Source of the DNA: an uncultured Actinomycetes bacterium
Lineage (GTDB): Bacteria > Actinomycetota > Acidimicrobiia > Acidimicrobiales > RAAP-2
Length of the DNA stretch: 64,000 nucleotides
Direction of reading: 5' to 3'
NCBI GenBank assembly: GCA_903873775.1
Contig: CAIQPR010000017.1
Location: 69,719-133,718 of the forward strand
The notes under the pieces: model-generated
Told to the model about the DNA's origin: nothing
Databases searched by the model: none
What the model saw: only the letters and a program-made list of their open reading frames with translations
Made by a program: the position numbers and the translations under genes
Shown here: positions 13,468 through 53,109 of the stretch, piece after piece
Layout of the letters: the number at the start of each line of letters is the position of its first letter
Position numbering within the stretch: the stretch's first letter is position 1

Positions 13468-15027
13468 GTGGCGGAAACTCGATTCGGACAAATTGGTCGT
13501 CTGGCGCAGCGTGTTCTGCCCATCCTGATTGTCATCGATCTACTTGCCGGCATTACTTTTCGATTCTGGACGAAATCGAAGTTGTGGCTCGACGAAGCAC
13601 AGGCCGTCAACATCTCCACACATTCACTCACTCAGATCGTCAGTTATCTGAAGAACGATGGCGCACCTCCGCTCTATTACTTCATCTTGCATTTCTGGAT
13701 GAAGGTTGTCGGAACGAGCGACAAAGACGTACGTGCTTTGTCTGGCGTCATCTCTGTGGCGACACTTCTCTTGGTCTACGGCGCCGCCAAAGCGTGGTGG
13801 GATCGACGGAGCGCAATTATCGCGGTGGCCATTGCGGCGGTATTGCCGTACTGCATCTACTTCGCGACCGAGACGCGCATGTACGCGCTCGTGATGGCAG
13901 AAAGTACGGCGCTCCTCTGGGTTCTTCGTGTGCATCTAGATCGGCCCCGTTGGTCAACAACGGTCGGAATGGCGCTGATCGGTTCGTGCCTTCTTTATAC
14001 CCACTACTGGGGCATTTACCTCTTAGGCGTGTTCGGACTGTTTGGGCTCATTCGGTGGTACCTCCATCGAGGTCAGCCGGAACGCCGCGATTGGATGTTG
14101 GTCCTCGCGCCCACTGTGGCCTTCGTGTCCTTCTTGCCGTGGGTGCCCATTTTTAACTCTCAACGACTCCACACGGGTACGCCGTGGTCGCCGGGACCAG
14201 GTCTGTACCAGATCTTCACGTGGTTCAACGGGTTCACGGTGAATCAAAGTGAGCACCTTGTGGCGTTGTCCCTGCACAACGAGATCACGATGCTGGTGTT
14301 CGTGGGTCTCGTCTTGTACGGGGTCTTCGGCCTCGTGATGACGCCGAAAGACAACCGTCTCATTCTGGACTGGACGGGGGTTCCAGAAACACGCACGATT
14401 GCCTTCATCACAATGACGACGATGGCCTTTGGTCTTCTCGCCTCTCACGTCTCGGGATCGGCCTACGTGCCCCGGTACGCCGCCGTCATAGCTATCCCCA
14501 TTGCGTTTCTCGCCGCGCGTGGAGTTCGCAATTTTGAGACGCCGCTACGCATCCTGATCGTTTTGGGTTTGATGTCGGGTGCGGCAATCTGGACTGACAA
14601 GTGGGGCGTACAGGTACAGCGAACGCAAGCCGGCGTCATTGGTACAGCTCTGCGTGCCGCTCCCGCCGGGTCGTTGGTCTACGTCTGTCCGGACCAGCTG
14701 GGGCCATCTCTGCTGCGTTATTCACCTACGAACCTCACCTACATCGGCTACCCGCGCTTTGAGAATCCGAAGATTGTGAATTGGTACGACTACCTCGACG
14801 CGTACAACGCGAGAACGCCCGCTCAAAATGCGGCCGCCCAGGCTGCAACCATTTCGTCCGGACAATCGGTCTACGTGGTGTGGGCGCCCAATTACGGGCT
14901 CAAATTGACATGCGTGGATTTCACGCGCGCATTGGCCGCGTCGCTTCATCGCCACATCGTGACGGTGGCGCCCTTGAATCTGAGTGGGTACTACCAATCC
15001 ATGGAGTTACAGCAACTCGTCGGATAG
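13468..15027 (+). CDS. GT-C glycosyltransferase (GT39/PMT_2-like, polyprenyl-phosphate-sugar dependent)
   Basis: LWLDEA after TM1, DGAPPLYY, ETRMYAL, YTHY; about 10 hydrophobic segments plus a C-terminal soluble domain. Confidence 0.85.
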   Translation: MAETRFGQIGRLAQRVLPILIVIDLLAGITFRFWTKSKLWLDEAQAVNISTHSLTQIVSYLKNDGAPPLYYFILHFWMKVVGTSDKDVRALSGVISVATLLLVYGAAKAWWDRRSAIIAVAIAAVLPYCIYFATETRMYALVMAESTALLWVLRVHLDRPRWSTTVGMALIGSCLLYTHYWGIYLLGVFGLFGLIRWYLHRGQPERRDWMLVLAPTVAFVSFLPWVPIFNSQRLHTGTPWSPGPGLYQIFTWFNGFTVNQSEHLVALSLHNEITMLVFVGLVLYGVFGLVMTPKDNRLILDWTGVPETRTIAFITMTTMAFGLLASHVSGSAYVPRYAAVIAIPIAFLAARGVRNFETPLRILIVLGLMSGAAIWTDKWGVQVQRTQAGVIGTALRAAPAGSLVYVCPDQLGPSLLRYSPTNLTYIGYPRFENPKIVNWYDYLDAYNARTPAQNAAAQAATISSGQSVYVVWAPNYGLKLTCVDFTRALAASLHRHIVTVAPLNLSGYYQSMELQQLVG

Positions 15028-15055
15028 TGCGAGAAAAGTTCATCTTCGCCTTGAC

Positions 15056-15061
15056 TAAGGT
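15056..15061 (+). promoter_or_regulatory. putative -10 element (TAAGGT), possible leaderless start at 15069
   Basis: TANNNT + 7 nt + ATG. Confidence 0.4.
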
Positions 15062-15068
15062 TTCAGGC

Positions 15069-16556
15069 ATGGATGAGCAGAAGCCCATTGTTGTCATCGG
15101 TGCAGGTCCGGCAGGATTGACAGCGGCGTACGAGATTCTCCGTCGGGGCGGTTCCGTGGTCGTGTACGAGTCCGACGGTGTCGTTGGCGGCATTAGTCGA
15201 ACCGTGGAGCGCGAGGGCTGGCGTTTCGATATTGGTGGACACCGGTTCTTCACGAAGGTGAAGGAAGTAGAGGCTTTCTGGCACGAGATTCTGCCCGATG
15301 AAGACTTTCTCCTTCGTCCCCGTATGTCACGCATTTTTTACGACGGGAAGTATTACGACTACCCACTAAAGCCCATGAACGCCCTGAAGAATCTGGGGTT
15401 CATTGAGGCCGTTCGTAGTGTCGGCAGTTACGGATGGGCGAAGGTCCATCCTCCGAAGGATCAGACCAACTACGAAGGTTGGTTGGTTGCGCGATTTGGC
15501 TGGCGCCTCTACCGACGGTTCTTTAAGACCTACACCGAGAAGGTGTGGGGCGTTCCCGTCAATCAAATGCCCGCCGACTGGGCGGCTCAGCGAGTGAAGG
15601 GTTTGTCGCTGGGTAACGCGATTTCTACTGCGCTGTCGCCGAAGAAGAAGCAGACGAACATCACCAGTCTGATTGAAGAATTTCAGTATCCGAAGTTCGG
15701 ACCCGGAATGATGTGGGAGCGCTGCACAGACTTGATTCGTGAAAAGGGAGGCCGCGTCGAGCTCCGCCACCGCGTGGTGGGCATTCGACACGAAAATGGA
15801 CAAGCCGTTGCCGTCAGGGTCAAGGGGCCCGATGGCGTCGTCTCCGAGCAGCCGGCGGCACACGTGATTTCCACGATGCCCATGGCCCAATTGGTTGACG
15901 CCTTCGAACCGGCCGCACCTTCCAGTGTCGTCACCGCGGGACACGATTTGCACTATCGCGACTTTTTGACGGTCGCTCTCGTCATTCCCGAAGACCAAGC
16001 CTTCCCAGACAACTGGATCTACATTCACGCGTCGGAAGTGAAGGTCGGACGTATTCAGAATTTCGGATCGTGGTCCCCGTACATGGTGAAGGAAGGTCGC
16101 ACCTGTCTCGGTCTTGAGTACTTCGTCTTCGAGGGTGACGAGTTGTGGAACGCCAAGGACGAGGATCTCATCGAGATGGGCAAGAAAGAACTTGCGTTCC
16201 TCGGGCTGATTTCCAATGATGTCACCATCGACACGGGGTACGTGTTCCGCATGCCGAAGGCGTACCCGTACTACGACGGCACGTACAAGCAGAATGTCAA
16301 GGTGATCAGTGACTACCTGGCGTCCGACATGTCGAATGTGCACCTGATCGGCCGCAACGGCATGCACAAGTACAACAATCAGGATCACTCGATGTACACG
16401 GCAATGCTCACGGTCGACAACATCTACGGTGCGCACAATGACATCTGGGCGGTGAACGTCGAAGAGGAGTATCACGAAACCTCCTCCACCTCGTCCGGAA
16501 GTGAAGGAACGGGGCGCGACGCACCTATTCTGCCGAAGCGCACCTCGATCACCTGA
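15069..16556 (+). CDS. FAD-dependent oxidoreductase, UDP-galactopyranose-mutase-like (eukaryote-type)
   Basis: VIGAGPAGLTAA FAD motif, FDIGGHRFF, WIYIH, PKAYP, GRNGMHKYNNQDHSM. Start set at ATG 15069. Confidence 0.75.
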   Translation: MDEQKPIVVIGAGPAGLTAAYEILRRGGSVVVYESDGVVGGISRTVEREGWRFDIGGHRFFTKVKEVEAFWHEILPDEDFLLRPRMSRIFYDGKYYDYPLKPMNALKNLGFIEAVRSVGSYGWAKVHPPKDQTNYEGWLVARFGWRLYRRFFKTYTEKVWGVPVNQMPADWAAQRVKGLSLGNAISTALSPKKKQTNITSLIEEFQYPKFGPGMMWERCTDLIREKGGRVELRHRVVGIRHENGQAVAVRVKGPDGVVSEQPAAHVISTMPMAQLVDAFEPAAPSSVVTAGHDLHYRDFLTVALVIPEDQAFPDNWIYIHASEVKVGRIQNFGSWSPYMVKEGRTCLGLEYFVFEGDELWNAKDEDLIEMGKKELAFLGLISNDVTIDTGYVFRMPKAYPYYDGTYKQNVKVISDYLASDMSNVHLIGRNGMHKYNNQDHSMYTAMLTVDNIYGAHNDIWAVNVEEEYHETSSTSSGSEGTGRDAPILPKRTSIT

Positions 16557-16561
16557 GTCCG

Positions 16562-17833
16562 GTGACACTCGTGTCGGGACCCACGGCGTCCTCTCCGTGG
16601 CGGCGGTTGCTGTCGAATGCACTACTTGTCGCCGTCGCCGGAGGCTTCGCCAACGTCCTGAATTTGGGCGTGACGTTTTTCATCGCGCGACTGCTGCAGC
16701 CCAATACCTACAGCGCCTACTCGCAGATGGTGGGAGTGTTTTTCGTTGTGGCGCTACCTGGGAGCGCGTTGAGCGTGGCGGTCGTGCGACGGGCCACCTA
16801 CTACATCGTGCGGGGAGAGGACGACGTCACGCGCCGCTGGGAGTACCGACTCCGCCAACGCGTTATTCGGGCGGCCGCCGTGGGCGCTCTGGGTTCTCTG
16901 CCTTTGGCGGTCGTGATTGCCCTGTGGTTGGGACACCGCGCGTGGATCGATGTGTGGCTGGTGATTTTGGCGGGCATTGTGTACGCGGTCGTGAGCGTCG
17001 ACCGCGCTTTGCTCCAATCACGCCAGAGATACAGCGCCCTCGCGGGGAACTTCGTTGTCGAGGGTCTCGTACGTACGGTTTTCATTCTGGTGGGCACGAC
17101 CTTCGGCGTCGCGGGGTACGGAGTGGGGCTGTTAGTGGCTGAATTGCTGACGCGTTGGCATTCGTCATGGTTAACGCGTCCCGAAGAACCCGTTGATCAC
17201 TCAATTTCCCTGACGCACACCGGTCTGACCAACGAGCTGATGGTGGCCTTTTGGACCTTGGGCATGATGGCCATTTTGCAGTTCATCGACGTGTTCACCA
17301 TTGGTCACGCCAATCCTCACGGTGGGGGTTCCTACACGGCGATCTCGCAAATCGCGAAGACTCTTGTCTACGCCGCCACGATCTTGAGCAGTTTTCTGTT
17401 ACCCGAGGCGGCTCTCGCGAATCGAAAAGGTGGTGACGTTGTCAAGCAGTTGGGAGTGGTGGGCGGGCTGCTCGCCGTGCCAGCCCTCGTGCTCACGGCG
17501 ACTGCCGCGCTCGCGCCCACATTGCTCGTAGACGTGTTTCCCGCGCAATATCGTCACGCCGCCGATTCACTCCTCACCTTGGTGGTCGCGATGGTGGCTC
17601 TCTCGGTGTCGACCGTCCTCGTGACGTTCCTGCTGGGCGACGGAGCTCGCTTGCCCACTCTGTGGCTGACTGCGTGCGTGTCCGTCGGTTTCTTCTGGAT
17701 TGTGGGCGCTCACGGGGTGTGGCATGAGACGGCGACAAGGGACCTCGAGGTGCAGTGCGTGGTCGTGGTGGGCCTCGTCGTCGCGTCGGGATTTCGGCTT
17801 CGTTCTCGTTTACGACTGGAGGCTGCGGCGTGA
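16562..17833 (+). CDS. polysaccharide/oligosaccharide flippase (Wzx/MOP-superfamily-like)
   Basis: About 12 hydrophobic segments, two-fold repeated architecture, located in a glycosyltransferase operon. Confidence 0.75.
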   Translation: MTLVSGPTASSPWRRLLSNALLVAVAGGFANVLNLGVTFFIARLLQPNTYSAYSQMVGVFFVVALPGSALSVAVVRRATYYIVRGEDDVTRRWEYRLRQRVIRAAAVGALGSLPLAVVIALWLGHRAWIDVWLVILAGIVYAVVSVDRALLQSRQRYSALAGNFVVEGLVRTVFILVGTTFGVAGYGVGLLVAELLTRWHSSWLTRPEEPVDHSISLTHTGLTNELMVAFWTLGMMAILQFIDVFTIGHANPHGGGSYTAISQIAKTLVYAATILSSFLLPEAALANRKGGDVVKQLGVVGGLLAVPALVLTATAALAPTLLVDVFPAQYRHAADSLLTLVVAMVALSVSTVLVTFLLGDGARLPTLWLTACVSVGFFWIVGAHGVWHETATRDLEVQCVVVVGLVVASGFRLRSRLRLEAAA

Positions 17834-18963
17834 CCCGCGATGCAACTGCCGAACTTCGTGAGTTGGTCGCCGCGTCCGGCCTTCGAACCATTCGCGTCAT
17901 CGCGTGGCGCGATCTCGACGACCCCGAGGCGGGCGGTAGTGAGCTGCACGCGGACGAGGTTCTACGACGATGGGCGGCCGCGGGTCTGTCGGTCGATCTG
18001 CGGACCTCGGCGGTTCCGGGACGCACCAAGCGCATCCGTCGGCACGGTTATTTCGTAGAGCGGTCGGGGGGCCGGTATCAGGTGTTCCCGCAAGCTGTTC
18101 TCCGCGGTTTCCGTCACGATCGCGATCACTATGACGCACTCGTTGAGATTTGGAACGGGATTCCGTTCTTTGGGCCTCTGTGGTTCAAAGGTCCTCGGCT
18201 CACCTTGCTGCACCATGTTCACGGCGCCATGTGGAAAATTTCGGTTCCTGGTCCGCTGTCCAAGGTGGGTTGGTGGCTTGAACATCGGGTCAGTCCTTTG
18301 ATCTATCGAAATTCGCGTATCTCCACATTGTCCAGTTCGAGTGCGGAAGAGATTAGAGACATCCTGCATCTTCGGGATGTGTCGGTTGTTCCCGTCGGGG
18401 TCTCGACGTTCTATTCGCCCGGCGGACAGCGTTCCGAGACCCCTCTCGTCGTTGCGGTGGGGCGACTGGCACCCGTGAAGAGGTTTGACATTCTGATTCG
18501 GACATTTGCGGAGGTGCGGGCCGCATGTCCGACCGCCCGTCTCGTCATTGCCGGCGAAGGTTACGTCCGCAGCGATCTCGAAGCCCTGGTGGAAGAGGTG
18601 GGGGGTCGGGAGTGGATTTCCTTGCCGGGTCGCATTAGTGACGAGGAACTTCGCGATTTGTACCGGTCCGCGTGGGTGCTGACGTCAACGTCGCTTCGAG
18701 AGGGCTGGGGAATGACGATTACCGAGGCCGCCGCCTGCGGCACGCCCGCCGTGGTCCATGACATTGCCGGTCACCACGACGCCGTGGACGCCAATCACAG
18801 TGGACTTCTTGTTCCTGAAACGGATTCGCTTGCCGACGCCCTGGTGAATGTTCTCAGTGACGCTGAATTGCGTGAACGGCTCGCATCCGGTGCCGCCGAA
18901 TACGCGGCAACCTTCTCGTGGGATGAAGTCGCGCTCTCGCTCTTTCGTCGGCTTGTCGACTAG
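17830..18963 (+). CDS. GT4 glycosyltransferase (Rv0225-like)
   Basis: WRDLDDPEAGGSE, GGRY, NGIPF, HHVH, VGRLAPVKR, TSLREGWG...EAAACGTP. GTGA overlap with the flippase gene. Confidence 0.9.
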   Translation: MTRDATAELRELVAASGLRTIRVIAWRDLDDPEAGGSELHADEVLRRWAAAGLSVDLRTSAVPGRTKRIRRHGYFVERSGGRYQVFPQAVLRGFRHDRDHYDALVEIWNGIPFFGPLWFKGPRLTLLHHVHGAMWKISVPGPLSKVGWWLEHRVSPLIYRNSRISTLSSSSAEEIRDILHLRDVSVVPVGVSTFYSPGGQRSETPLVVAVGRLAPVKRFDILIRTFAEVRAACPTARLVIAGEGYVRSDLEALVEEVGGREWISLPGRISDEELRDLYRSAWVLTSTSLREGWGMTITEAAACGTPAVVHDIAGHHDAVDANHSGLLVPETDSLADALVNVLSDAELRERLASGAAEYAATFSWDEVALSLFRRLVD

Positions 18964-18969
18964 GGCGAG

Positions 18970-21900
18970 TTAGCGACGTTCGATCACAACGACGAGGTCG
19001 TGGATGATGAGGTCCCGCATGAGCGGCACCTTGAGAGTCCATCGCCACGAAGGCCCGAGGAGGCGAGGGCCCACCGTGTAGAGAGCGAGACCTCGGTGCT
19101 GTCGGACGATGCGGACCAATTCGTGCGGACGTAGGGCAAACAGCGTCTCCCCAAATCGCTTGTCAGGCTCGTGGCCCGTCTTGGTGCGATAGCGACGGCG
19201 CCCGTAGGAACCGGAGACCAGGTGCCACGGGCTGGTCTCAAACCCTCCGGTGGGCGAGAGCCACATGCGGTTCTGCACGAAAATGGACCCGCCGGGTCGC
19301 GTCACACGAACCACTTCTTCAAGGAGTCGCCGTGGGTCGTCGACGAAAGAAAAAATGTCGTGCACGATGACGAGGTCGAAACTTCCGTCACGAACGGGGA
19401 TATTCAAAGGTTGAAACGGAATCTCGTCGAGGTACGACACGCGCGGTGTTGGTGAGTCGACGTCCTCGAGAGAGCTCGCCGTCGGCACTCGCATGGCCGT
19501 CACGCGGGCACCACGTTCGGCGAGCGCTTCCGCTGCGGCGAGGCGAGGGTCGGCAATCTCCAAGACCTCACGATTGAAAATTGCGGTGCGACCCACGACC
19601 AGATTGGTGGTGTCTTGTCGCATCAGAGCGTCCAATTCCTCAGGTTGATGGCGCAAGCGACGTGCGGCCCGGAGGAAAAACAAGGTCCTCGGAAGCCCGA
19701 CGACCGGGATCTGCATTGGCTCGTCGGGTTCGATCTCCTCGGTCGGCTGATTGTGGTCCGGGTCAGCAACGTTGAGTCCGCGTCGACGTCGAGCGACGAG
19801 CGCCGGCGCGACGACGACCGGTACTTTCGACGCTCCCGGCATCCATCGACGCGTACGGCGGGACTCTGTGGGGGCGGCCTCGCCTCGAGGGGCCTCTTTC
19901 GTTGCGCTGGCGGCGGGCGGCGGCGTATCTCGAGGAGTAGGTCGCGGTCGTGCGGCTCGCGAGGAGAGAGCCTGGGGCTGGACATTGGCAATCACCAGGA
20001 AGAACCACAGCGCCATGGCGAACCAGACGAAGCTATTGCTGTAGTGGACATGAGCGGGCCACGTGATGTCTCTGGTCCACGTGCCGAGCGTTGCCGACAT
20101 GGTGACGGCAATACCCGCCAGTAGGGACAGGACGGCGCTGGCGCCGAGTAAACGGCCAATCGAGGGACGTGCGCGCCACACCCACGCCGCCGCCACGAGG
20201 AACGGCACCATCCAGATGGACACGAAGAGGCCAATGATCACCGCGGCCGTGTACGTGACGAGGGGTGACGACGTGACATTACCCACGAACACAGAGAGCA
20301 CGGGCGTGGCGTCAACGTGCTCGCGAGTCATTTCGTCAACACTGAGACCACGGCGTCGGGGCCAGTTGAAGACGGCGATGCCGAGCACCGCGAGGAAACC
20401 GAAGAGTGATGCGAGGAGAGCGTAGAGAACGGTGTTCTGCGGTTGCCAGACGAAGGCGAGCTGTTCAGTTGACGAGATGTGCGAAGGAAGACGCCACCCC
20501 ATTGACGCCCCGTCGACGAGGGTCGGTGTGCCGAGATCGCGACCGTTCAAGATTGCGTGCCAACCCGGACCGTAGGACTGTCCGAGAACCGCCCACTGTC
20601 CGGCGTCTGCTGAACCAACCGTGGAGCGAACGACGGTGCGTCCGTACCAGTGTCCGGCCGCGTCGGAAACGGTGGGTACTGGCCCGGCCGTGGTACCCGT
20701 TGACGAGAGCTGAACGTCGTCGAGATCAAGACCGGTCGCAAGTCCGGGGCTGGAGGTAATGACGGATTGACCGGCGGAGACGGTGGTGGGTGCAGTAGCG
20801 CAGGACGTGAACGGCAAGGCGTCTCCAGCCAGAGCCGACGCCGAGCTCCCGCTCACACGAATCGGAATCGACACGCCATCGATCTTGAGCAGGTCGCTGC
20901 GGCAGCCGGACGAGAACGTGGGATTCGTGACACCCGGCGTCACACCGGGAATGGCGATGTCCGCGATGGCGATGGGTGGGAAATTGATGCCGCCGCTGAC
21001 GCGGTCGAGGACGGTGGCGGTCTTGAACTTGACCGTAGTAAATCGAAACGCTGAGCCCGTGATCGCGGGAACGTTGATGGTGAAGATCTGCTCCGTATTC
21101 AGAGCAGAGCCCTGAGCCGCGAGCGTTGTGGGTATCGCGAAGTTTTCGGTAGTGCGCCCGTTGCTAATGCTCATTTCGGTCGGTACCGCGTGATAACCGT
21201 CGTTCACGATGGTCATCTTGAAGGTGTGAATGGTCACAGAGTGCGACAGCGTCGCTTGGACAAATTCTCCAGCACCAGACTTGAAACGAGGCTGCCACAG
21301 AGTTTGCAGCGAGCCGTCGAAGGCGCTCCACGACGAGTTGGCGAGGGAACCTTTGATGTGTGACGAACTTGTCGTGGCGATAATCGACGTGCCGGCGCCG
21401 GGGTGTCGCCCCAGGATCTCATTGACGACCTGGTCGCTCGCGAGTGAATTGAGCGACGCCGTGCCCGAGATCGTGAAAGAGCGGGAATAGGGCAGGTCCA
21501 CGTAGCGCAGCAGATACGGCTCTGGGTCGGCTCGGACTGAATAGGGAGAGACTCGAAGTCGGGATACGACGATCTTGAGAGAGTCAGTCTGTGCGGCAGA
21601 GCCTGCCGCGGCGAGTAGGGACGTGGGGAGGAGCAACCCTCTCGTGGCCGGACCAAAACCCGGGACCGCAACTTCCGAGAATCCCACCATGCTCGCGGTG
21701 GCGACGCCGTGTGGCGCTGCCGTCACTCCCAGAATCGTGATCCGAACCGTACGTCCGGTGGTTGGAGGTATGGAAATGGTCTGACCCGGCGGATTCTGAG
21801 ACGATGGCGTCAAGGTCCGGATGATGTTCGGCCGACCGTCAACGGATATCCCAATCTTGGTGATGTAACGGTTAATAAAGATGTCGCGCGCTTGCGTGAT

Positions 21901-24252
21901 CTGCAGCGAGGAAATTCGGTGGGGCTCCAGTGCTGTCTCCTGCCACCACTGCCCGTCGGCATTCGAGAAGGCGGCTGTTGCCCACGACGTGGTGGAGTCT
22001 CCATCGACAGCCTTATACGCCTGATTCTCTGGGTTGTTCGTGATGGGGTTTCCATAACTGGACGCCGTCACGGATGAGAGGCCCGTGAGTTCCGCGACGG
22101 TTTGGGAATTCGCAGGAGCGTTGGGGAAAACCGGAATGCTCTGCTCTTGCTCGTTGTTCGAGTACTTCTCGTTCGCCGCAAGTACGTAGCCCTGCGTGGC
22201 GTTCAGGGTTCCGAACGTCTGTTGCGACTTTGTATTGGAGTCGGTCAGCACCAATGTGGCGCCGGCTTGGTGCGCCTCCTCGGCGATCATGGAGCGAGGT
22301 GTCGACGCGTCATAGAGAATGACATTGCCGCCCGAGAGTCCACCCACGTTCGCGAGCGTCACGAGGCCCGCTCCATCACCGGCGACGATGTAGGGAGAGC
22401 TCGTTGATTCCACACGCACCAGAGGGCGAGCCGCGCTCACGGAATAGATCTTGAGCGATGGCGGCCACTGGTAACCGGGAGGCAAGGCGAGAGTGTTCTC
22501 GTTGATATAGGGACCATTGATGGCGGTGAATGTCGTCTGAGGTCCGTACGAGCCCACTTCGGTCATCCCGACGTTCGGAGATGAAAAGAGGTGGTCTAAG
22601 TACGGGGGTAGTGGTGTTCCGTATCGCTCATACTGTCCGTCAAACTGCACCAACACGTTTGACGCCCCAAACAAACGCGCAATCGGAGCAATGGAGGCCG
22701 GCTCGGCGACGCCATCTTGGAGAGTGGAGTCCAGCGAACGTATGAGGTTGATACTCGCCGGCTCTCCAACGAGTTGGACCTGCGAGGAGATCCAGGGACG
22801 GTGCACCAGCGCGGGCCACAATGAATCGTTGTAGGTCCCGTAGCGGTAATAGGCGAAATCAAATCCTGGCAAGCCGAGGACATTGCTCGTCGACGAGCCG
22901 GTATTGAGTTCCTTCGCGGCCTGCTGGACGTAGGAGGGAGGCGTCTCGGGCAGCGTCAGGTTGGAGGGGATGGACCGCAGTGTGAACAAGGGCGACATCG
23001 CCGTGATGCACGCGAGCGAGAAGACCCCGACGCTCCACCACTGAAGACGGGGCCAGCGAGCGACCAGTGCGTCAAAGAGGGCTCCGGCCAAAAGCGCCAG
23101 TCCAATGGTCATGATCGGGATCACCCGATTGGTGGAGCGCATGGCGAGAGCGACCGTCGTATGGGTGGCGAGGTACCGCAAGACGACACCAAATGGTGTC
23201 GGACTCGACAGTGGGTACGACGCCACCGCGACTACCAAGCCAATGAAGGTGACACCAACTGCAAACAGGCGGTACCGCCAACGAATCACGAGAGCGGCCA
23301 CGAACCCCGTAGCTGGGACGAGAAAACTGGCGAGGGGAACCACGTTGCCGCTCGTGTAGTGAATCGAGTTCCCTGTCCATAACTGCAGTCCGTCAGTGCC
23401 GTAGAAGTACCAGTACCCCAAGCCACGGAATACCTCGGAGGCCGACGATGTGAGCGTCACCGTGGAGAACGATTCTGTGAACTTCAAAATATTGATGCCG
23501 TACTTGCCCTCAGCCCACAGTCCGGCCAGCCACCACAAGGACACGACGAGCGAGAGCGAGCCCATGCGGATCAGCACGGCGCGAACGCGGCGCCACGGAA
23601 TTTCTCGAGTCGCGGCGGCGAAGAAGAGCCAGGCGATGGGGGCAAGACCAACCGTCAGAATCGATGTGGCGTTAATACCGCCCGCCAACGCCACGACGAT
23701 GGCAAATAAAGCGGGATTGCGCCAGTCATTGCGGTGGGCCGCACGAATTGTGAAGACCATCATCCAGCCAAGTCCCGCCCACGGCATGAGGAGGGCCGAG
23801 GTACGGGCGATGTCGACGATGATGAAGGGCGACAACATGTACGCAAGGGCGACCAAGAATCCCGCGCGACGCGTTAATCCCATTTCGGCGGCGCATTTGC
23901 GAGCTCCAAGACCCGCGAGGAAGAGCAGGCCACCCATCCAGACGCGTTGGGCTATCCAGGTCGGAACACTCAACGCGTGACAGATCCAGTAGTAGGGACC
24001 CATCGGGAAGAGGTATCCGATGTTTTGGTGGGTGACGGTCCCGAACCCGACGTCGGTGTTCCACATGGACGCCGCTGTGGCGAGAAGGTGAGACGGGTCG
24101 AGGTAGAGATAGACCTTGGTGTCGTCGGCAAGCAGCCCCGGCTTCGTCAGCAAGAGGGGCGCGAAGGCCAGCACGATCAAGACCACTGTGTCCCACGGTG
24201 ACTCGAGCCAGCGTCGGCGCGTGGCGGATACGTCTGAGGCGCCAAGGGTCAC
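18970..24252 (-). CDS. AftD/DUF3367-like arabinofuranosyltransferase with carbohydrate-binding modules, fused to a C-terminal Rv0224c/MtrP-like methyltransferase-fold domain
   Basis: N-terminal GT-C region (DDTK, HQNIGYLFPMGPYY, GGINAT), two discoidin/F5-8-like modules (AVDGDSTTSW, AFDGSLQTLW), C-terminal TM block, Pro/Arg linker, then a class I MTase-like domain (SFDLVIV, EVVRVTRPGG, WLSPTGGFE). Confidence 0.85.
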   Translation of the reverse strand: MTLGASDVSATRRRWLESPWDTVVLIVLAFAPLLLTKPGLLADDTKVYLYLDPSHLLATAASMWNTDVGFGTVTHQNIGYLFPMGPYYWICHALSVPTWIAQRVWMGGLLFLAGLGARKCAAEMGLTRRAGFLVALAYMLSPFIIVDIARTSALLMPWAGLGWMMVFTIRAAHRNDWRNPALFAIVVALAGGINATSILTVGLAPIAWLFFAAATREIPWRRVRAVLIRMGSLSLVVSLWWLAGLWAEGKYGINILKFTESFSTVTLTSSASEVFRGLGYWYFYGTDGLQLWTGNSIHYTSGNVVPLASFLVPATGFVAALVIRWRYRLFAVGVTFIGLVVAVASYPLSSPTPFGVVLRYLATHTTVALAMRSTNRVIPIMTIGLALLAGALFDALVARWPRLQWWSVGVFSLACITAMSPLFTLRSIPSNLTLPETPPSYVQQAAKELNTGSSTSNVLGLPGFDFAYYRYGTYNDSLWPALVHRPWISSQVQLVGEPASINLIRSLDSTLQDGVAEPASIAPIARLFGASNVLVQFDGQYERYGTPLPPYLDHLFSSPNVGMTEVGSYGPQTTFTAINGPYINENTLALPPGYQWPPSLKIYSVSAARPLVRVESTSSPYIVAGDGAGLVTLANVGGLSGGNVILYDASTPRSMIAEEAHQAGATLVLTDSNTKSQQTFGTLNATQGYVLAANEKYSNNEQEQSIPVFPNAPANSQTVAELTGLSSVTASSYGNPITNNPENQAYKAVDGDSTTSWATAAFSNADGQWWQETALEPHRISSLQITQARDIFINRYITKIGISVDGRPNIIRTLTPSSQNPPGQTISIPPTTGRTVRITILGVTAAPHGVATASMVGFSEVAVPGFGPATRGLLLPTSLLAAAGSAAQTDSLKIVVSRLRVSPYSVRADPEPYLLRYVDLPYSRSFTISGTASLNSLASDQVVNEILGRHPGAGTSIIATTSSSHIKGSLANSSWSAFDGSLQTLWQPRFKSGAGEFVQATLSHSVTIHTFKMTIVNDGYHAVPTEMSISNGRTTENFAIPTTLAAQGSALNTEQIFTINVPAITGSAFRFTTVKFKTATVLDRVSGGINFPPIAIADIAIPGVTPGVTNPTFSSGCRSDLLKIDGVSIPIRVSGSSASALAGDALPFTSCATAPTTVSAGQSVITSSPGLATGLDLDDVQLSSTGTTAGPVPTVSDAAGHWYGRTVVRSTVGSADAGQWAVLGQSYGPGWHAILNGRDLGTPTLVDGASMGWRLPSHISSTEQLAFVWQPQNTVLYALLASLFGFLAVLGIAVFNWPRRRGLSVDEMTREHVDATPVLSVFVGNVTSSPLVTYTAAVIIGLFVSIWMVPFLVAAAWVWRARPSIGRLLGASAVLSLLAGIAVTMSATLGTWTRDITWPAHVHYSNSFVWFAMALWFFLVIANVQPQALSSRAARPRPTPRDTPPPAASATKEAPRGEAAPTESRRTRRWMPGASKVPVVVAPALVARRRRGLNVADPDHNQPTEEIEPDEPMQIPVVGLPRTLFFLRAARRLRHQPEELDALMRQDTTNLVVGRTAIFNREVLEIADPRLAAAEALAERGARVTAMRVPTASSLEDVDSPTPRVSYLDEIPFQPLNIPVRDGSFDLVIVHDIFSFVDDPRRLLEEVVRVTRPGGSIFVQNRMWLSPTGGFETSPWHLVSGSYGRRRYRTKTGHEPDKRFGETLFALRPHELVRIVRQHRGLALYTVGPRLLGPSWRWTLKVPLMRDLIIHDLVVVIERR

Positions 24253-52315: not shown

Positions 52316-53109
52316 CGCTCGCGCCACCAGGTGCCGAAGACCACGCGCGTGTAGCGATAGCCGAAGAGCCAGTTCTTGCCCTTCTTCGTCGTTCCGGAGT
52401 GACGGGGGTACCAGTTCGTCGGCACCTCGCTCACTCGCCATCCTCGCTTGAGACACGTGATGAGGAGTTCTGCCGTCTGGTACTGCTCCTGCTCCAAGCG
52501 GTCAATCACGTCGGCCATCATCGACACCCGCAGCGCGCGGTAGCCGTTCGACGTGTCCGTCAAGTGAGATCCCGTCATGCGATTCATCACAAAGGAGAAA
52601 AACTTCACACCAGTCTTGCGAAAGCGGTCGGTGGTGTTGTCAATACCGAGCGCCCGCGACGCCACGACGAAGTCACTTTCGTCCGTGAGCAACGGTGCAA
52701 TGAGCTGAGGGATCTCGACGGGGTCATTTTGTCCATCAGAGTCGATGGTCACGATGTACTTCACGCCATTGTCAATGCAGTAGCGATATCCCACCTGGAG
52801 GGCGACGCCGTGTCCGAGATTGGTGGGAAATTCAATGACGCGCACGCCATCAAACGAGCGGCTGATGTCGGACGTGGCGTCATCCCCACCGTCAACCACC
52901 ACGAGCGTCGTGTAGGGCTGACCGTCAATCGACTCGGGCATCTTCGACAGGACGTGTCCGATGTTGCCTTCTTCTTCGTAGGCGCAGAACAGCACGACGA
53001 TGTCCTCGGGCGTGAAGCCGGGATAGTCACTCTCGAAGCGGCTCATGGCTTCGCCAATGGCGTACTTACGCAGTCCGGCTAAACGGCGCTTCTCAAGATC
53101 TACGGCCAT
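52312..53109 (-). CDS. GT2 glycosyltransferase, polyprenol-phosphate sugar synthase (Ppm1/DPM1-like)
   Basis: CAYEE, VVDGGDD, NLGHG, DSDGQ (DxD), TDTSNGYR. SD GAGGAGG before ATG 53109. Confidence 0.85.
   Translation of the reverse strand: MAVDLEKRRLAGLRKYAIGEAMSRFESDYPGFTPEDIVVLFCAYEEEGNIGHVLSKMPESIDGQPYTTLVVVDGGDDATSDISRSFDGVRVIEFPTNLGHGVALQVGYRYCIDNGVKYIVTIDSDGQNDPVEIPQLIAPLLTDESDFVVASRALGIDNTTDRFRKTGVKFFSFVMNRMTGSHLTDTSNGYRALRVSMMADVIDRLEQEQYQTAELLITCLKRGWRVSEVPTNWYPRHSGTTKKGKNWLFGYRYTRVVFGTWWRER

What the first reader, a model, noticed from the sequence alone, without database searches (positions are those of the whole stretch)
15069..16556. Bacterial homologue of the eukaryote-type UDP-galactopyranose mutase beside an arabinofuranosyltransferase-like gene
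Seen: DIGGHRFF and GRNGMHKYNNQDHSM motifs. Known (recalled): fungal and trypanosomatid UGMs carry DVGGHVIF (His loop) and GRFGxWxYEVxNQDHS, and are longer (~500 aa) than bacterial Glf (~370-400 aa). This protein is 495 aa. Such proteins are often auto-annotated as protoporphyrinogen or amine oxidase. Inference: it is a pyranose-furanose mutase, possibly acting on UDP-arabinose, given the AftD-like neighbour.
Basis: partly seen in the sequence, partly recalled or inferred. Interest (0 to 1): 0.55.

Follow-up and report, generated by a model that had tools for sequence, protein, structure and literature searches.

The report
Bacterial eukaryote-type sugar-ring mutase homologue
This gene encodes an unstudied bacterial flavoprotein that keeps the fold and most of the active site of the fungal and trypanosome enzyme that makes UDP-galactofuranose, so it probably supplies a five-membered-ring sugar for a cell-envelope glycan, but it is not the source of arabinose for the neighbouring AftD-like enzyme.

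Summary
Window 15069-16556 (+) encodes a 495-aa protein with DIGGHRFF (residues 54-61) and GRNGMHKYNNQDHSM (428-442).

- **Family:** it belongs to NCBIfam NF005548 (PRK07208.1-4, "hypothetical protein"), a very large uncharacterised family.
- **Closest solved relatives:** eukaryotic UDP-galactopyranose mutases match over the full length (profile E about 1e-51; VIA-align Z 33-36). Bacterial Glf and protoporphyrinogen oxidase score lower.
- **Active site:** fifteen of the 20 published A. fumigatus active-site residues are kept and near-invariant, including five that are eukaryote-specific. The loop II pair is not kept.
- **Nucleotide-sugar link:** the identifiable fusion partners elsewhere are nucleotide-sugar enzymes or glycosyltransferases.

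Best reading: a cytoplasmic nucleotide-sugar pyranose/furanose mutase, most likely for UDP-galactose. It sits in a tight operon with a PMT_2-type GT-C, a Wzx-like flippase and a GT4. The GT-C orthologue was found only in genomes that carry the mutase gene.

The arabinose idea is not supported. AftD enzymes use decaprenyl-phospho-arabinose, and this genome encodes DPPR synthase, DprE1 and DprE2.

The sugar remains unproven. No member has been assayed that I could find. The scan has noted this family before on other DNA.

The parts
15069..16556 (+). UGM-like flavoprotein, 495 aa (NCBIfam NF005548 / PRK07208.1-4); predicted nucleotide-sugar pyranose/furanose mutase
15228..15251 (+). DIGGHRFF: histidine loop (G56-G57-H58) plus F61, equivalent to AfUGM G61-G62-H63 and F66
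   Evidence: PMC3322874 Table 2
16350..16394 (+). GRNGMHKYNNQDHSM: R429, Y435, N437 and Q438, equivalent to AfUGM R447, Y453, N457 and Q458
13468..15027 (+). PMT_2-type GT-C membrane glycosyltransferase, 519 aa; first gene of the operon and the conserved partner of the UGM-like gene
   Evidence: PF13231 E 5e-10; adjacent in 9 of 11 related loci; orthologue found only in UGM-like-positive genomes, 12 of 12
16562..17833 (+). Wzx/MOP-type oligosaccharide flippase-like membrane protein, 423 aa; starts 5 nt after the UGM-like stop codon
   Evidence: no Pfam or NCBIfam hit; Atlas structure match to oligosaccharide flippase clusters, TM 0.84; spacing
17830..18963 (+). GT4 glycosyltransferase; likely start GTG 17830 overlaps the flippase stop codon (GTGA) and has GGAGG 7 nt upstream
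   Evidence: PF00534 E 9e-34
18970..24252 (-). AftD-like GT-C with F5/8 type C and methyltransferase-like domains, 1760 aa; convergent with the operon
   Evidence: PF11847, 262 bits; an AftD-family gene lies 13-15 kb from the UGM-like gene in G027, G032, G033 and G037

Best explanation
The gene encodes a cytoplasmic, FAD-dependent nucleotide-sugar pyranose/furanose mutase built on the eukaryote-type UGM architecture.

Inferred mechanism, by analogy with UGM: reduced flavin N5, positioned under the G56-G57-H58 loop, attacks the anomeric carbon of an NDP-pyranose. The NDP leaving group is held by R175, R328, Y318, Y399 and Y435. The ring opens and recloses as a furanose on the flavin-iminium, and the NDP re-attaches.

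The most likely substrate is UDP-galactopyranose. GalE is present and no classical Glf was found. Another NDP-sugar is not excluded.

The product feeds an envelope glycan made by the co-operonic genes: a PMT_2-type GT-C, a Wzx-like flippase and a GT4. The convergent AftD-like enzyme probably elaborates it outside the membrane with arabinofuranose from the separately encoded DPPR synthase/DprE1/DprE2 route.

Shown here: homology, fold, residue conservation, operon structure, co-occurrence. Inferred: catalysis, the sugar, and the order of steps.
For: - **Sequence:** NF005548 at 782 bits against a cut-off of 389. Eukaryotic UGMs are the best PDB matches for the single sequence (E 4e-21). With the family profile they score E 1e-51 over profile positions 6-341 and 361-452, against 1e-26 or weaker for bacterial Glf (N-terminal 170 residues only) and 1e-16 for PPOX.
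- **Fold:** the AF2 model has pLDDT 91.9 and pTM 0.91. Foldseek puts AfUGM and TcUGM first (TM 0.78-0.83, E 1e-33). VIA-align gives TcUGM Z 36.5 (rmsd 2.7 A, 443 residues aligned) and AfUGM Z 33-35 (445-452 residues). Bacterial UGM scores Z 31.4 (354 residues) and PPOX Z 30.9 (rmsd 4.0 A).
- **Active site:** 15 of the 20 AfUGM residues in Table 2 of PMC3322874 are kept in the target, 14 of them in 80-86 and F61 in 68 of 86 family members. They are H58, F61, R85, F151, Y155, W160, R175, W316, Y318, R328, Y399, R429, Y435, N437 and Q438. Five of these (F66, R91, W315, Y317 and Q458 in AfUGM numbering) are eukaryote-specific.
- **Fusions:** the same NF005548 domain is fused elsewhere to an NDP-sugar SDR, a UDP-GlcNAc 3-dehydrogenase-like domain, GT2, GT4, and GT2 plus a PMT_2 GT-C.
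- **Context:** a tight four-gene operon. A GT-C is adjacent in 9 of 11 loci from the same order. The GT-C orthologue occurs in 12 genomes, all UGM-like-positive. Among 111 immediate neighbours in 80 public loci, PMT_2 (20) and GT2 (12) are the commonest families.
- **Genome:** no classical Glf was found. GalE is present at 334 bits.
Against: - I found no member of the family that has been assayed.
- The loop II (flap) residues P206 and N207 are replaced by L201 and I202. Q107, which is recalled to contact uracil, is variable in the family. N163 is Thr, as in bacterial UGMs, and E373 could not be aligned.
- In a sample of 61 genomes from the phylum, 2 of the 7 that carry classical Glf also carry this family. 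In one of them (G088, unpublished) the two genes lie 4 kb apart. This hints that the two enzymes are not redundant, so the substrate may not be UDP-galactose.
- The constant partner is a GT-C, which uses lipid-linked rather than nucleotide donors. This operon has no polyprenyl-phosphate sugar synthase.
- No GlfT2-type transferase was found.
- The tree puts the family apart from fungal UGMs on very long branches, and the placement of Glf is unreliable.
Confidence: 0.68

Rival explanations
1. It is a pyranose/furanose mutase for a nucleotide sugar other than UDP-galactose, for example UDP-L-arabinose, UDP-GalNAc or a 6-deoxyhexose. It would make a furanose donor not yet known in these bacteria. 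This is a sub-case of the best explanation with a different substrate.
For: - The sugar-side flap (AfUGM N203, P206, N207) and Q107 are not conserved.
- Classical Glf and this family co-occur in G063 and G088.
- One fusion partner is a generic 4,6-dehydratase/epimerase-like SDR and another is UDP-GlcNAc 3-dehydrogenase-like, rather than a clear GalE.
- From recall and one title seen (PMC10615251): Glf homologues with altered specificity are known.
Against: N437 and R175, which contact galactose hydroxyls in AfUGM (PMC3322874), are kept. This genome has GalE and no other route to UDP-Galf. No specificity determinants are established that could be read from sequence.
Confidence: 0.25
2. It supplies arabinofuranose as UDP-Araf for the AftD-like neighbour, giving a DprE-independent route.
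For: The AftD-like gene is nearby. The AftD family and the UGM-like gene co-occur in most relatives and lie within 15 kb of each other in several.
Against: - AftD-type GT-C enzymes use decaprenyl-phospho-D-Araf, whereas UDP-Ara is the L-sugar (established knowledge).
- The genome encodes DPPR synthase, DprE1 and DprE2.
- G023, G034 and G038 have the UGM-like gene but no AftD-family match.
- The conserved partner is the PMT_2 GT-C.
Confidence: 0.04
3. It is a redox flavoenzyme of the amine-oxidase/PPOX/phytoene-desaturase superfamily that oxidises or reduces a sugar, a lipid-linked sugar or a polyprenol, rather than acting as a mutase.
For: The only Pfam hits above cut-off are Amino_oxidase and FAD-binding domains. 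Sources name it protoporphyrinogen oxidase or FAD-dependent oxidoreductase. PPOX shares the overall fold (Z about 31). It is paired with membrane GT-C enzymes that handle lipid-linked substrates.
Against: The PPOX model scores 27 bits against a cut-off of 97.85, and a genuine HemY is present. Outside the Rossmann part, sequence similarity is to UGMs only. The UGM-specific His loop and the diphosphate-binding Arg/Tyr set are near-invariant. The identifiable fusion partners are nucleotide-sugar enzymes or glycosyltransferases.
Confidence: 0.1

Closest known systems
Eukaryotic UDP-galactopyranose mutases (A. fumigatus UgmA, PDB 3UTE/3UKH; T. cruzi UGM, PDB 4DSG/4DSH)
   Same: Similar length (about 500 aa). 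Three-domain fold aligned over 443-452 residues at 2.7-3.0 A. The His loop, both diphosphate arginines and Y419/R447/Y453/N457 are kept. So are the eukaryote-only residues F66, R91, W315, Y317 and Q458.
   Different: Only 21-22% identity. It forms a separate clade on a long branch. The loop II residues P206/N207 become L201/I202, N163 becomes Thr and M159 becomes Phe, as in bacterial UGMs. There is a two-residue deletion in the GRxG...NQDHS motif. It is bacterial, sits in an operon with GT-C, flippase and GT4 genes, and has never been assayed.
Bacterial Glf / UGM (PF03275, TIGR00031; E. coli, K. pneumoniae, M. tuberculosis, D. radiodurans)
   Same: Same superfamily and presumably the same flavin-N5 chemistry. 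It shares H, Y, W, both R, Y, R, Y and T156 (PMC3322874 Table 2).
   Different: Glf is 370-400 aa. Only the N-terminal 170 residues or so align by sequence. The models score below their cut-offs: PF03275 17.9 against 26.3 and TIGR00031 36 against 304. Glf lacks the equivalents of W315, Y317, F66 and R91.
Mycobacterial arabinogalactan assembly (Glf + GlfT1/2 in the cytoplasm, export, then DPA-dependent Aft/Emb GT-C enzymes)
   Same: Same logic: a furanose-nucleotide supply, a cytoplasmic GT, an exporter, and extracytoplasmic GT-C enzymes including an AftD relative. The DPA pathway is present.
   Different: No GlfT2-like enzyme was found. The exporter is Wzx-like, not an ABC transporter. The GT is GT4, not GT2. 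The mutase belongs to another family. The organism is an Acidimicrobiales-like actinobacterium, and the glycan is unknown.
Three-component lipid-linked glycosylation systems (GtrA/GtrB/GtrV, CsbB/YfhO type)
   Same: The mutase recurs next to GT-C and GT2 genes across phyla. One protein fuses mutase, GT2 and a PMT_2 GT-C (P0283).
   Different: This operon has no GT2. The fused GT2 domains resemble EpsD/MftF-type more than GtrB/DPM1-type enzymes. I found no described lipid-linked hexofuranose.

Membership tests
NCBIfam NF005548 (PRK07208.1-4, 'hypothetical protein') | Full-length HMM score above the curated cut-off | tested here: met
   782.4 bits against 389, residues 3-490
UGM superfamily, eukaryote type (EC 5.4.99.9) | Three-domain UGM fold including the eukaryote-type insertions | tested here: met
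   Model pLDDT 91.9. TcUGM Z 36.5 with 443 of 465 residues aligned. AfUGM Z 33-35 with about 448 aligned. Bacterial UGM aligns only about 355 residues.
UGM superfamily, eukaryote type (EC 5.4.99.9) | Histidine loop (GGH) over flavin N5, and Phe at the F66 position | tested here: met
   G56-G57-H58, with His in 84 of 86 family members. F61, with Phe in 68 of 86.
UGM superfamily, eukaryote type (EC 5.4.99.9) | Diphosphate- and sugar-binding set R182, R327, Y317, Y419, R447, Y453, N457 | tested here: met
   R175, R328, Y318, Y399, R429, Y435 and N437, each present in 80-86 of 86 members (residue roles from PMC3322874)
UGM superfamily, eukaryote type (EC 5.4.99.9) | Mobile loop II residues P206/N207, and Q107 | tested here: not met
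   L201/I202. Position 101 is K in the target and variable in the family.
UGM superfamily, eukaryote type (EC 5.4.99.9) | Groups with eukaryotic UGMs in a tree | tested here: inconclusive
   The family and fungal UGMs are separate clades joined by branches of 2.4 and 3.7 changes per site. Glf sits on a 7.7 branch and its placement is unreliable. HemY was the only outgroup.
UGM superfamily, eukaryote type (EC 5.4.99.9) | Interconversion of UDP-Galp and UDP-Galf with reduced FAD | not testable with these tools
   Needs an enzyme assay
Bacterial Glf (PF03275 / TIGR00031) | Model score above the curated cut-off | tested here: not met
   PF03275 17.9 against 26.3. TIGR00031 36.4 against 303.75.
Protoporphyrinogen oxidase HemY/PPOX (TIGR00562) | Model score above the curated cut-off | tested here: not met
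   27.2 bits against 97.85, Rossmann region only. A separate HemY-type gene scores 134.8 bits on contig C28.
Three-component lipid-linked glycosylation module | Polyprenyl-phosphate sugar synthase (GT2) encoded with the GT-C | tested here: not met
   No GT2 in 13468-24252. There are 17 GT2 matches elsewhere in the genome.

The most novel reading that the evidence does not exclude
The PRK07208 family is a second, widespread bacterial lineage of furanose-forming mutases. Its product, galactofuranose or a furanose not yet known, would be passed through a polyprenyl-phosphate carrier to PMT_2-type GT-C enzymes outside the membrane. I could find no described lipid-linked hexofuranose route. The family could also be the bacterial stock from which eukaryotic UGM arose.
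Probability: 0.2. Interest if true: 0.75.

Novelty: new variant of a known kind. Interest (0 to 1): 0.5.

Why it matters
Furanose sugars are absent from mammals, and the enzymes that make them are drug targets in mycobacteria, fungi and trypanosomatids.

This family has more than 2,000 clusters at 50% identity with E below 1e-30. Databases label it hypothetical protein, protoporphyrinogen oxidase or FAD-dependent oxidoreductase. It spans Actinomycetota, Acidobacteriota, Gemmatimonadota, Planctomycetota, Myxococcota, Chloroflexota and a Nitrosopolaris archaeon. If its members are mutases:

- many envelope glycans of poorly studied bacteria would contain unrecognised furanosides;
- thousands of annotations would be wrong;
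- the origin of the eukaryote-type UGM architecture would become testable.

For this genome it also clarifies that the AftD-like enzyme has its own conventional donor pathway.

Tried and rejected
- **PPOX or amine oxidase:** rejected on model scores, on a separate HemY gene and on the absence of similarity beyond the Rossmann part.
- **UDP-arabinose supply for AftD:** rejected after finding DPPR synthase, DprE1 and DprE2.
- **Apparent fusions in relatives** (open frames of 1,000-1,241 aa in L003 and L009): the upstream halves have no domains and look like spurious open frames in high-GC DNA.
- **Tree with fungal UGMs, six actinobacterial Glf and the genome's HemY:** the groups are clean, but the deep branches are too long to say which group is sister to which. 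No kinetoplastid or nematode UGM sequence was available from the tools.
- **GT2 domain of the triple fusion:** too weakly similar to any solved GT2 to say whether it is a lipid-phosphate sugar synthase.
- **Literature:** searches for PRK07208, for eukaryote-type UGM in bacteria, for lipid-linked galactofuranose and for a Caulobacter member found nothing relevant. CCNA_00465 is an ordinary short Glf. The Beverley 2005 paper was not held under the id I tried.
- **Tools:** The consensus promoter and terminator scan gave nothing above chance.
Full report
**The gene.** Window 15069-16556 (+) is an ATG-initiated ORF of 495 aa with AAGG 9-12 nt upstream. A longer TTG-initiated frame from 14781 overlaps the preceding gene and is not supported by homologues, which align from residue 5-7. 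The last 29 residues or so are a Ser/Thr-rich tail that the model leaves disordered.

**Which family.**
- Pfam sees only generic Amino_oxidase and FAD-binding domains. The bacterial GLF model is below its cut-off at 17.9 against 26.3 bits.
- NCBIfam places the protein firmly in NF005548 (PRK07208.1-4, "hypothetical protein") at 782 bits against a cut-off of 389. The PPOX model TIGR00562 scores 27 against 97.85, and the bacterial UGM model TIGR00031 scores 36 against 304.
- The family is very large. More than 8,000 near-length relatives have E at or below 1e-10 in the 90% clustered collection, variously named protoporphyrinogen oxidase, NAD(P)/FAD-dependent oxidoreductase or, occasionally, UDP-galactopyranose mutase. 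There are 2,070 clusters at 50% identity with E at or below 1e-30.
- Public genomes carrying close members include Acidimicrobiia MAGs, Micromonospora, Frankia, Protofrankia, Actinomadura and Geodermatophilus. Members at 49-55% identity occur in Gemmatimonadota, Acidobacteriota, Planctomycetota, Myxococcota, Chloroflexota and a Nitrosopolaris archaeon.

**Relation to solved enzymes.**
- With the single sequence, A. fumigatus and T. cruzi UGM are the best PDB matches (E 4e-21 and 1e-14). They cover residues 6-343 plus the C-terminal motif. Bacterial Glf, L-amino-acid oxidases and PPOX match only the Rossmann end at E 1e-7 or weaker.
- A profile of 86 family members (A1) raises the eukaryotic UGMs to E about 1e-51 over the full length. 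Bacterial Glf reaches 1e-26 to 1e-15 over the N-terminal 170 residues, and PPOX reaches 1e-16.
- An AlphaFold2 model built on A1 is confident (pLDDT 91.9, pTM 0.91).
- Foldseek ranks AfUGM and TcUGM first (TM 0.78-0.83, E about 1e-33), then PPOX.
- VIA-align gives TcUGM Z 36.5 (2.7 A, 443 residues), AfUGM Z 33-35 (445-452 residues), D. radiodurans UGM Z 31.4 (354 residues) and M. xanthus PPOX Z 30.9 (4.0 A).
- The fold alone does not separate these families sharply. The extra 90 residues or so that align with eukaryotic UGMs but not bacterial ones show that the long-form architecture is shared.

**Active site.** Table 2 of van Straaten et al. 2012 (PMC3322874) lists 20 active-site residues of AfUGM and their bacterial counterparts. 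I aligned the 86 family members with eight fungal UGMs fetched and mapped those residues.

| Status | AfUGM residue -> target residue |
|---|---|
| Kept, shared with bacterial UGMs | H63->H58, F158->F151, Y162->Y155, W167->W160, R182->R175, R327->R328, Y419->Y399, R447->R429, Y453->Y435, N457->N437 |
| Kept, eukaryote-specific | F66->F61, R91->R85, W315->W316, Y317->Y318, Q458->Q438 |
| Changed | M159->F152, N163->T156 (both as in bacterial UGMs), P206->L201, N207->I202 |
| Could not be aligned | E373 |

- That makes 15 of 20 kept in the target. Fourteen of them are present in 80-86 of 86 family members. F61 is Phe in 68 of 86, and Q438 is Gln in 50 and Met in 28.
- Y104 is also kept (Y98). 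Q107 is variable, and Y334 becomes Trp.
- R182 and R327 position the diphosphate and the sugar, and R327A is inactive (PMC3322874).
- This pattern is what a mutase would keep and what an oxidase would have no reason to keep.

**Tree.** I built a maximum-likelihood tree of 54 rows: 39 family members including the insert-bearing subfamily, eight fungal UGMs, six actinobacterial Glf and the genome's own HemY as outgroup. The fungal UGM and Glf groups come out as clean clades and the family falls on one side of a 91%-supported branch, but Glf is placed inside the family on a 7.7 branch, which I regard as unreliable. The fungal UGM branch is 3.7 changes per site and the family stem 2.4. The refutation criterion "clusters with HemY/PPOX" is not met. 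The tree does not show that the family is sister to, or ancestor of, eukaryotic UGMs. L030 (G088) was left out because that genome is unpublished.

**Rosetta-stone fusions.** Several representatives carry the same NF005548 domain fused to other enzymes:
- P0129: an extended-SDR NDP-sugar dehydratase/epimerase.
- P0137: a UDP-GlcNAc 3-dehydrogenase-like GFO/IDH/MocA domain.
- P0130: a GT2.
- P0234: a GT4.
- P0161: a methyltransferase.
- P0135/P0283 (Phycisphaera, 1,438 aa): a GT2 followed by a PMT_2 GT-C.

Three further long forms (P0132, P0187, P0248) showed no extra domain. All but the methyltransferase handle nucleotide sugars or transfer sugars, which argues for a nucleotide-sugar substrate. 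The GT2 domains resemble EpsD/MftF-type enzymes. They cannot be assigned to the GtrB/DPM1 type.

**Context in the window.**
- The gene is the second of four tightly packed plus-strand genes.
  - The PMT_2-type GT-C runs from 13468 to 15027, followed by a 41-nt gap.
  - The UGM-like gene follows, then a 5-nt gap.
  - Next is a 423-aa membrane protein that Pfam misses. The Atlas matches it to Wzx/MOP oligosaccharide flippases at TM 0.84.
  - Last is a GT4. Its likely GTG start at 17830 overlaps the flippase stop codon and follows GGAGG.
  - Sources.
- The operon converges on the 1,760-aa AftD-like protein.
- The flanks are housekeeping genes: polA, rpsA and an opp transporter on one side; uvrB, uvrA, uvrC, rapZ, pgk and tpi on the other.

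**Context in relatives.**
- In 11 loci from the same order, the UGM-like gene is adjacent to the GT-C orthologue in nine. It often also sits beside a second PMT_2 GT-C, Acyl_transf_3 acyltransferases and Wzx-like proteins, and beside the same opp operon. The position is therefore ancestral, not a mobile island.
- Across 41 genomes, the GT-C orthologue was found in 12, all of them UGM-like-positive. These genomes are kin, so this is not a statistical test.
- In the three UGM-like-positive genomes where the GT-C was not found (G021, G023, G036), the UGM-like match lies at or near a contig end.
- The AftD family was found in 13 genomes, 10 of them with a full UGM-like gene and an eleventh (G029) with fragments. 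It lies 13-15 kb away in G027, G032, G033 and G037. G023, G034 and G038 have the UGM-like gene without AftD.
- Within the genus, only 4 of 24 other genomes carry the gene.
- In 80 public loci, the commonest Pfam families among 111 immediate neighbours are PMT_2 (20), GT2 (12), GT4 (5) and Acyl_transf_3 (4).

**Why not arabinose.**
- The genome is a 1.97-Mb MAG in 81 contigs, 91% complete.
- It encodes a DPPR synthase (NF008978, 309.5 bits against 207).
- It encodes DprE2 (NF053786, 253.6 bits against 250).
- It encodes the C-terminal 153 residues of DprE1, cut by a contig end (NF053785, 207 bits).
- So the conventional decaprenyl-phospho-arabinose donor for an AftD-type enzyme is available.
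- UDP-arabinose is the L-sugar and is not an AftD substrate (established knowledge of the mycobacterial pathway).

**Which sugar.**
- For UDP-galactose:
  - No classical Glf was found in this genome.
  - GalE is present (334 bits).
  - The galactose-contacting N457 and R182 equivalents are kept.
- Against UDP-galactose:
  - Loop II differs.
  - No GlfT2-type enzyme was found.
  - In a 61-genome sample of the phylum, 11 genomes have this family above its cut-off and 7 have classical Glf. G063 and G088 have both.
  - The statement that the two genes lie 4 kb apart rests on G088, an unpublished genome.
- The genome has 17 GT2 matches, so candidate furanosyltransferases or lipid-phosphate sugar synthases exist outside the operon.

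**Verdict.**
- The mutase reading is well supported by sequence, fold, residue conservation and fusions.
- The arabinose/AftD link is not supported.
- The enzyme is best described as an uncharacterised bacterial, eukaryote-type UGM homologue serving a GT-C-centred envelope glycan operon.
- Earlier notes of this scan reached similar readings on other genomes. I re-derived the points cited here independently. One note on this window proposed a DprE-independent route, which my results contradict.
- I found no paper on the family in the held library.

Noticed in passing
L002 (G000:C63:1-1960) and L037 (G000:C29:12136-15373), outside the window: The complete decaprenyl-phospho-arabinose donor route is present in this Acidimicrobiales-like genome. 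DprE1 is cut by a contig end, DprE2 is adjacent to it, and the DPPR synthase lies on another contig.
   Followed up: partly
window 17818-17833: The GT4 gene most likely starts at GTG 17830. That start overlaps the flippase stop codon (GTGA) and follows GGAGG, which suggests translational coupling. The mechanical ORF start at 17755 is probably too far upstream.
   Followed up: partly
G001-G024 (same genus): Only 4 of 24 other genomes of the same genus carry the UGM-like gene, whereas most sampled families of the order do. This suggests repeated loss of the glycan locus within the genus.
   Followed up: partly
P0283 / P0135 (Phycisphaera MAG, RNC81890.1): A single protein of 1,409-1,438 aa fuses the UGM-like domain, a GT2 and a PMT_2-type GT-C. 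This makes it a natural candidate for working out the pathway order.
   Followed up: partly
G100:C15:30234-31655 and G071:C12:100913-102172: Two actinobacterial members of the family have one in-frame stop codon each (TAG and TGA). They may be pseudogenes or sequencing errors.
   Followed up: no
G088:C4:62583-68803 (unpublished genome) and G063: Classical Glf and the UGM-like gene co-occur in these two genomes. In G088 they lie 4 kb apart, which hints that the two enzymes are not redundant.
   Followed up: no
window 16467-16553: The C-terminal 29 residues of the protein form a Ser/Thr-rich tail (pLDDT below 50) that the family profile and the UGM structures do not cover.
   Followed up: no
window 52513-52995 (-): A further GT2 domain match lies inside the window (G000:C17:122231-122713), about 36 kb from the operon. 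It was not examined.
   Followed up: no
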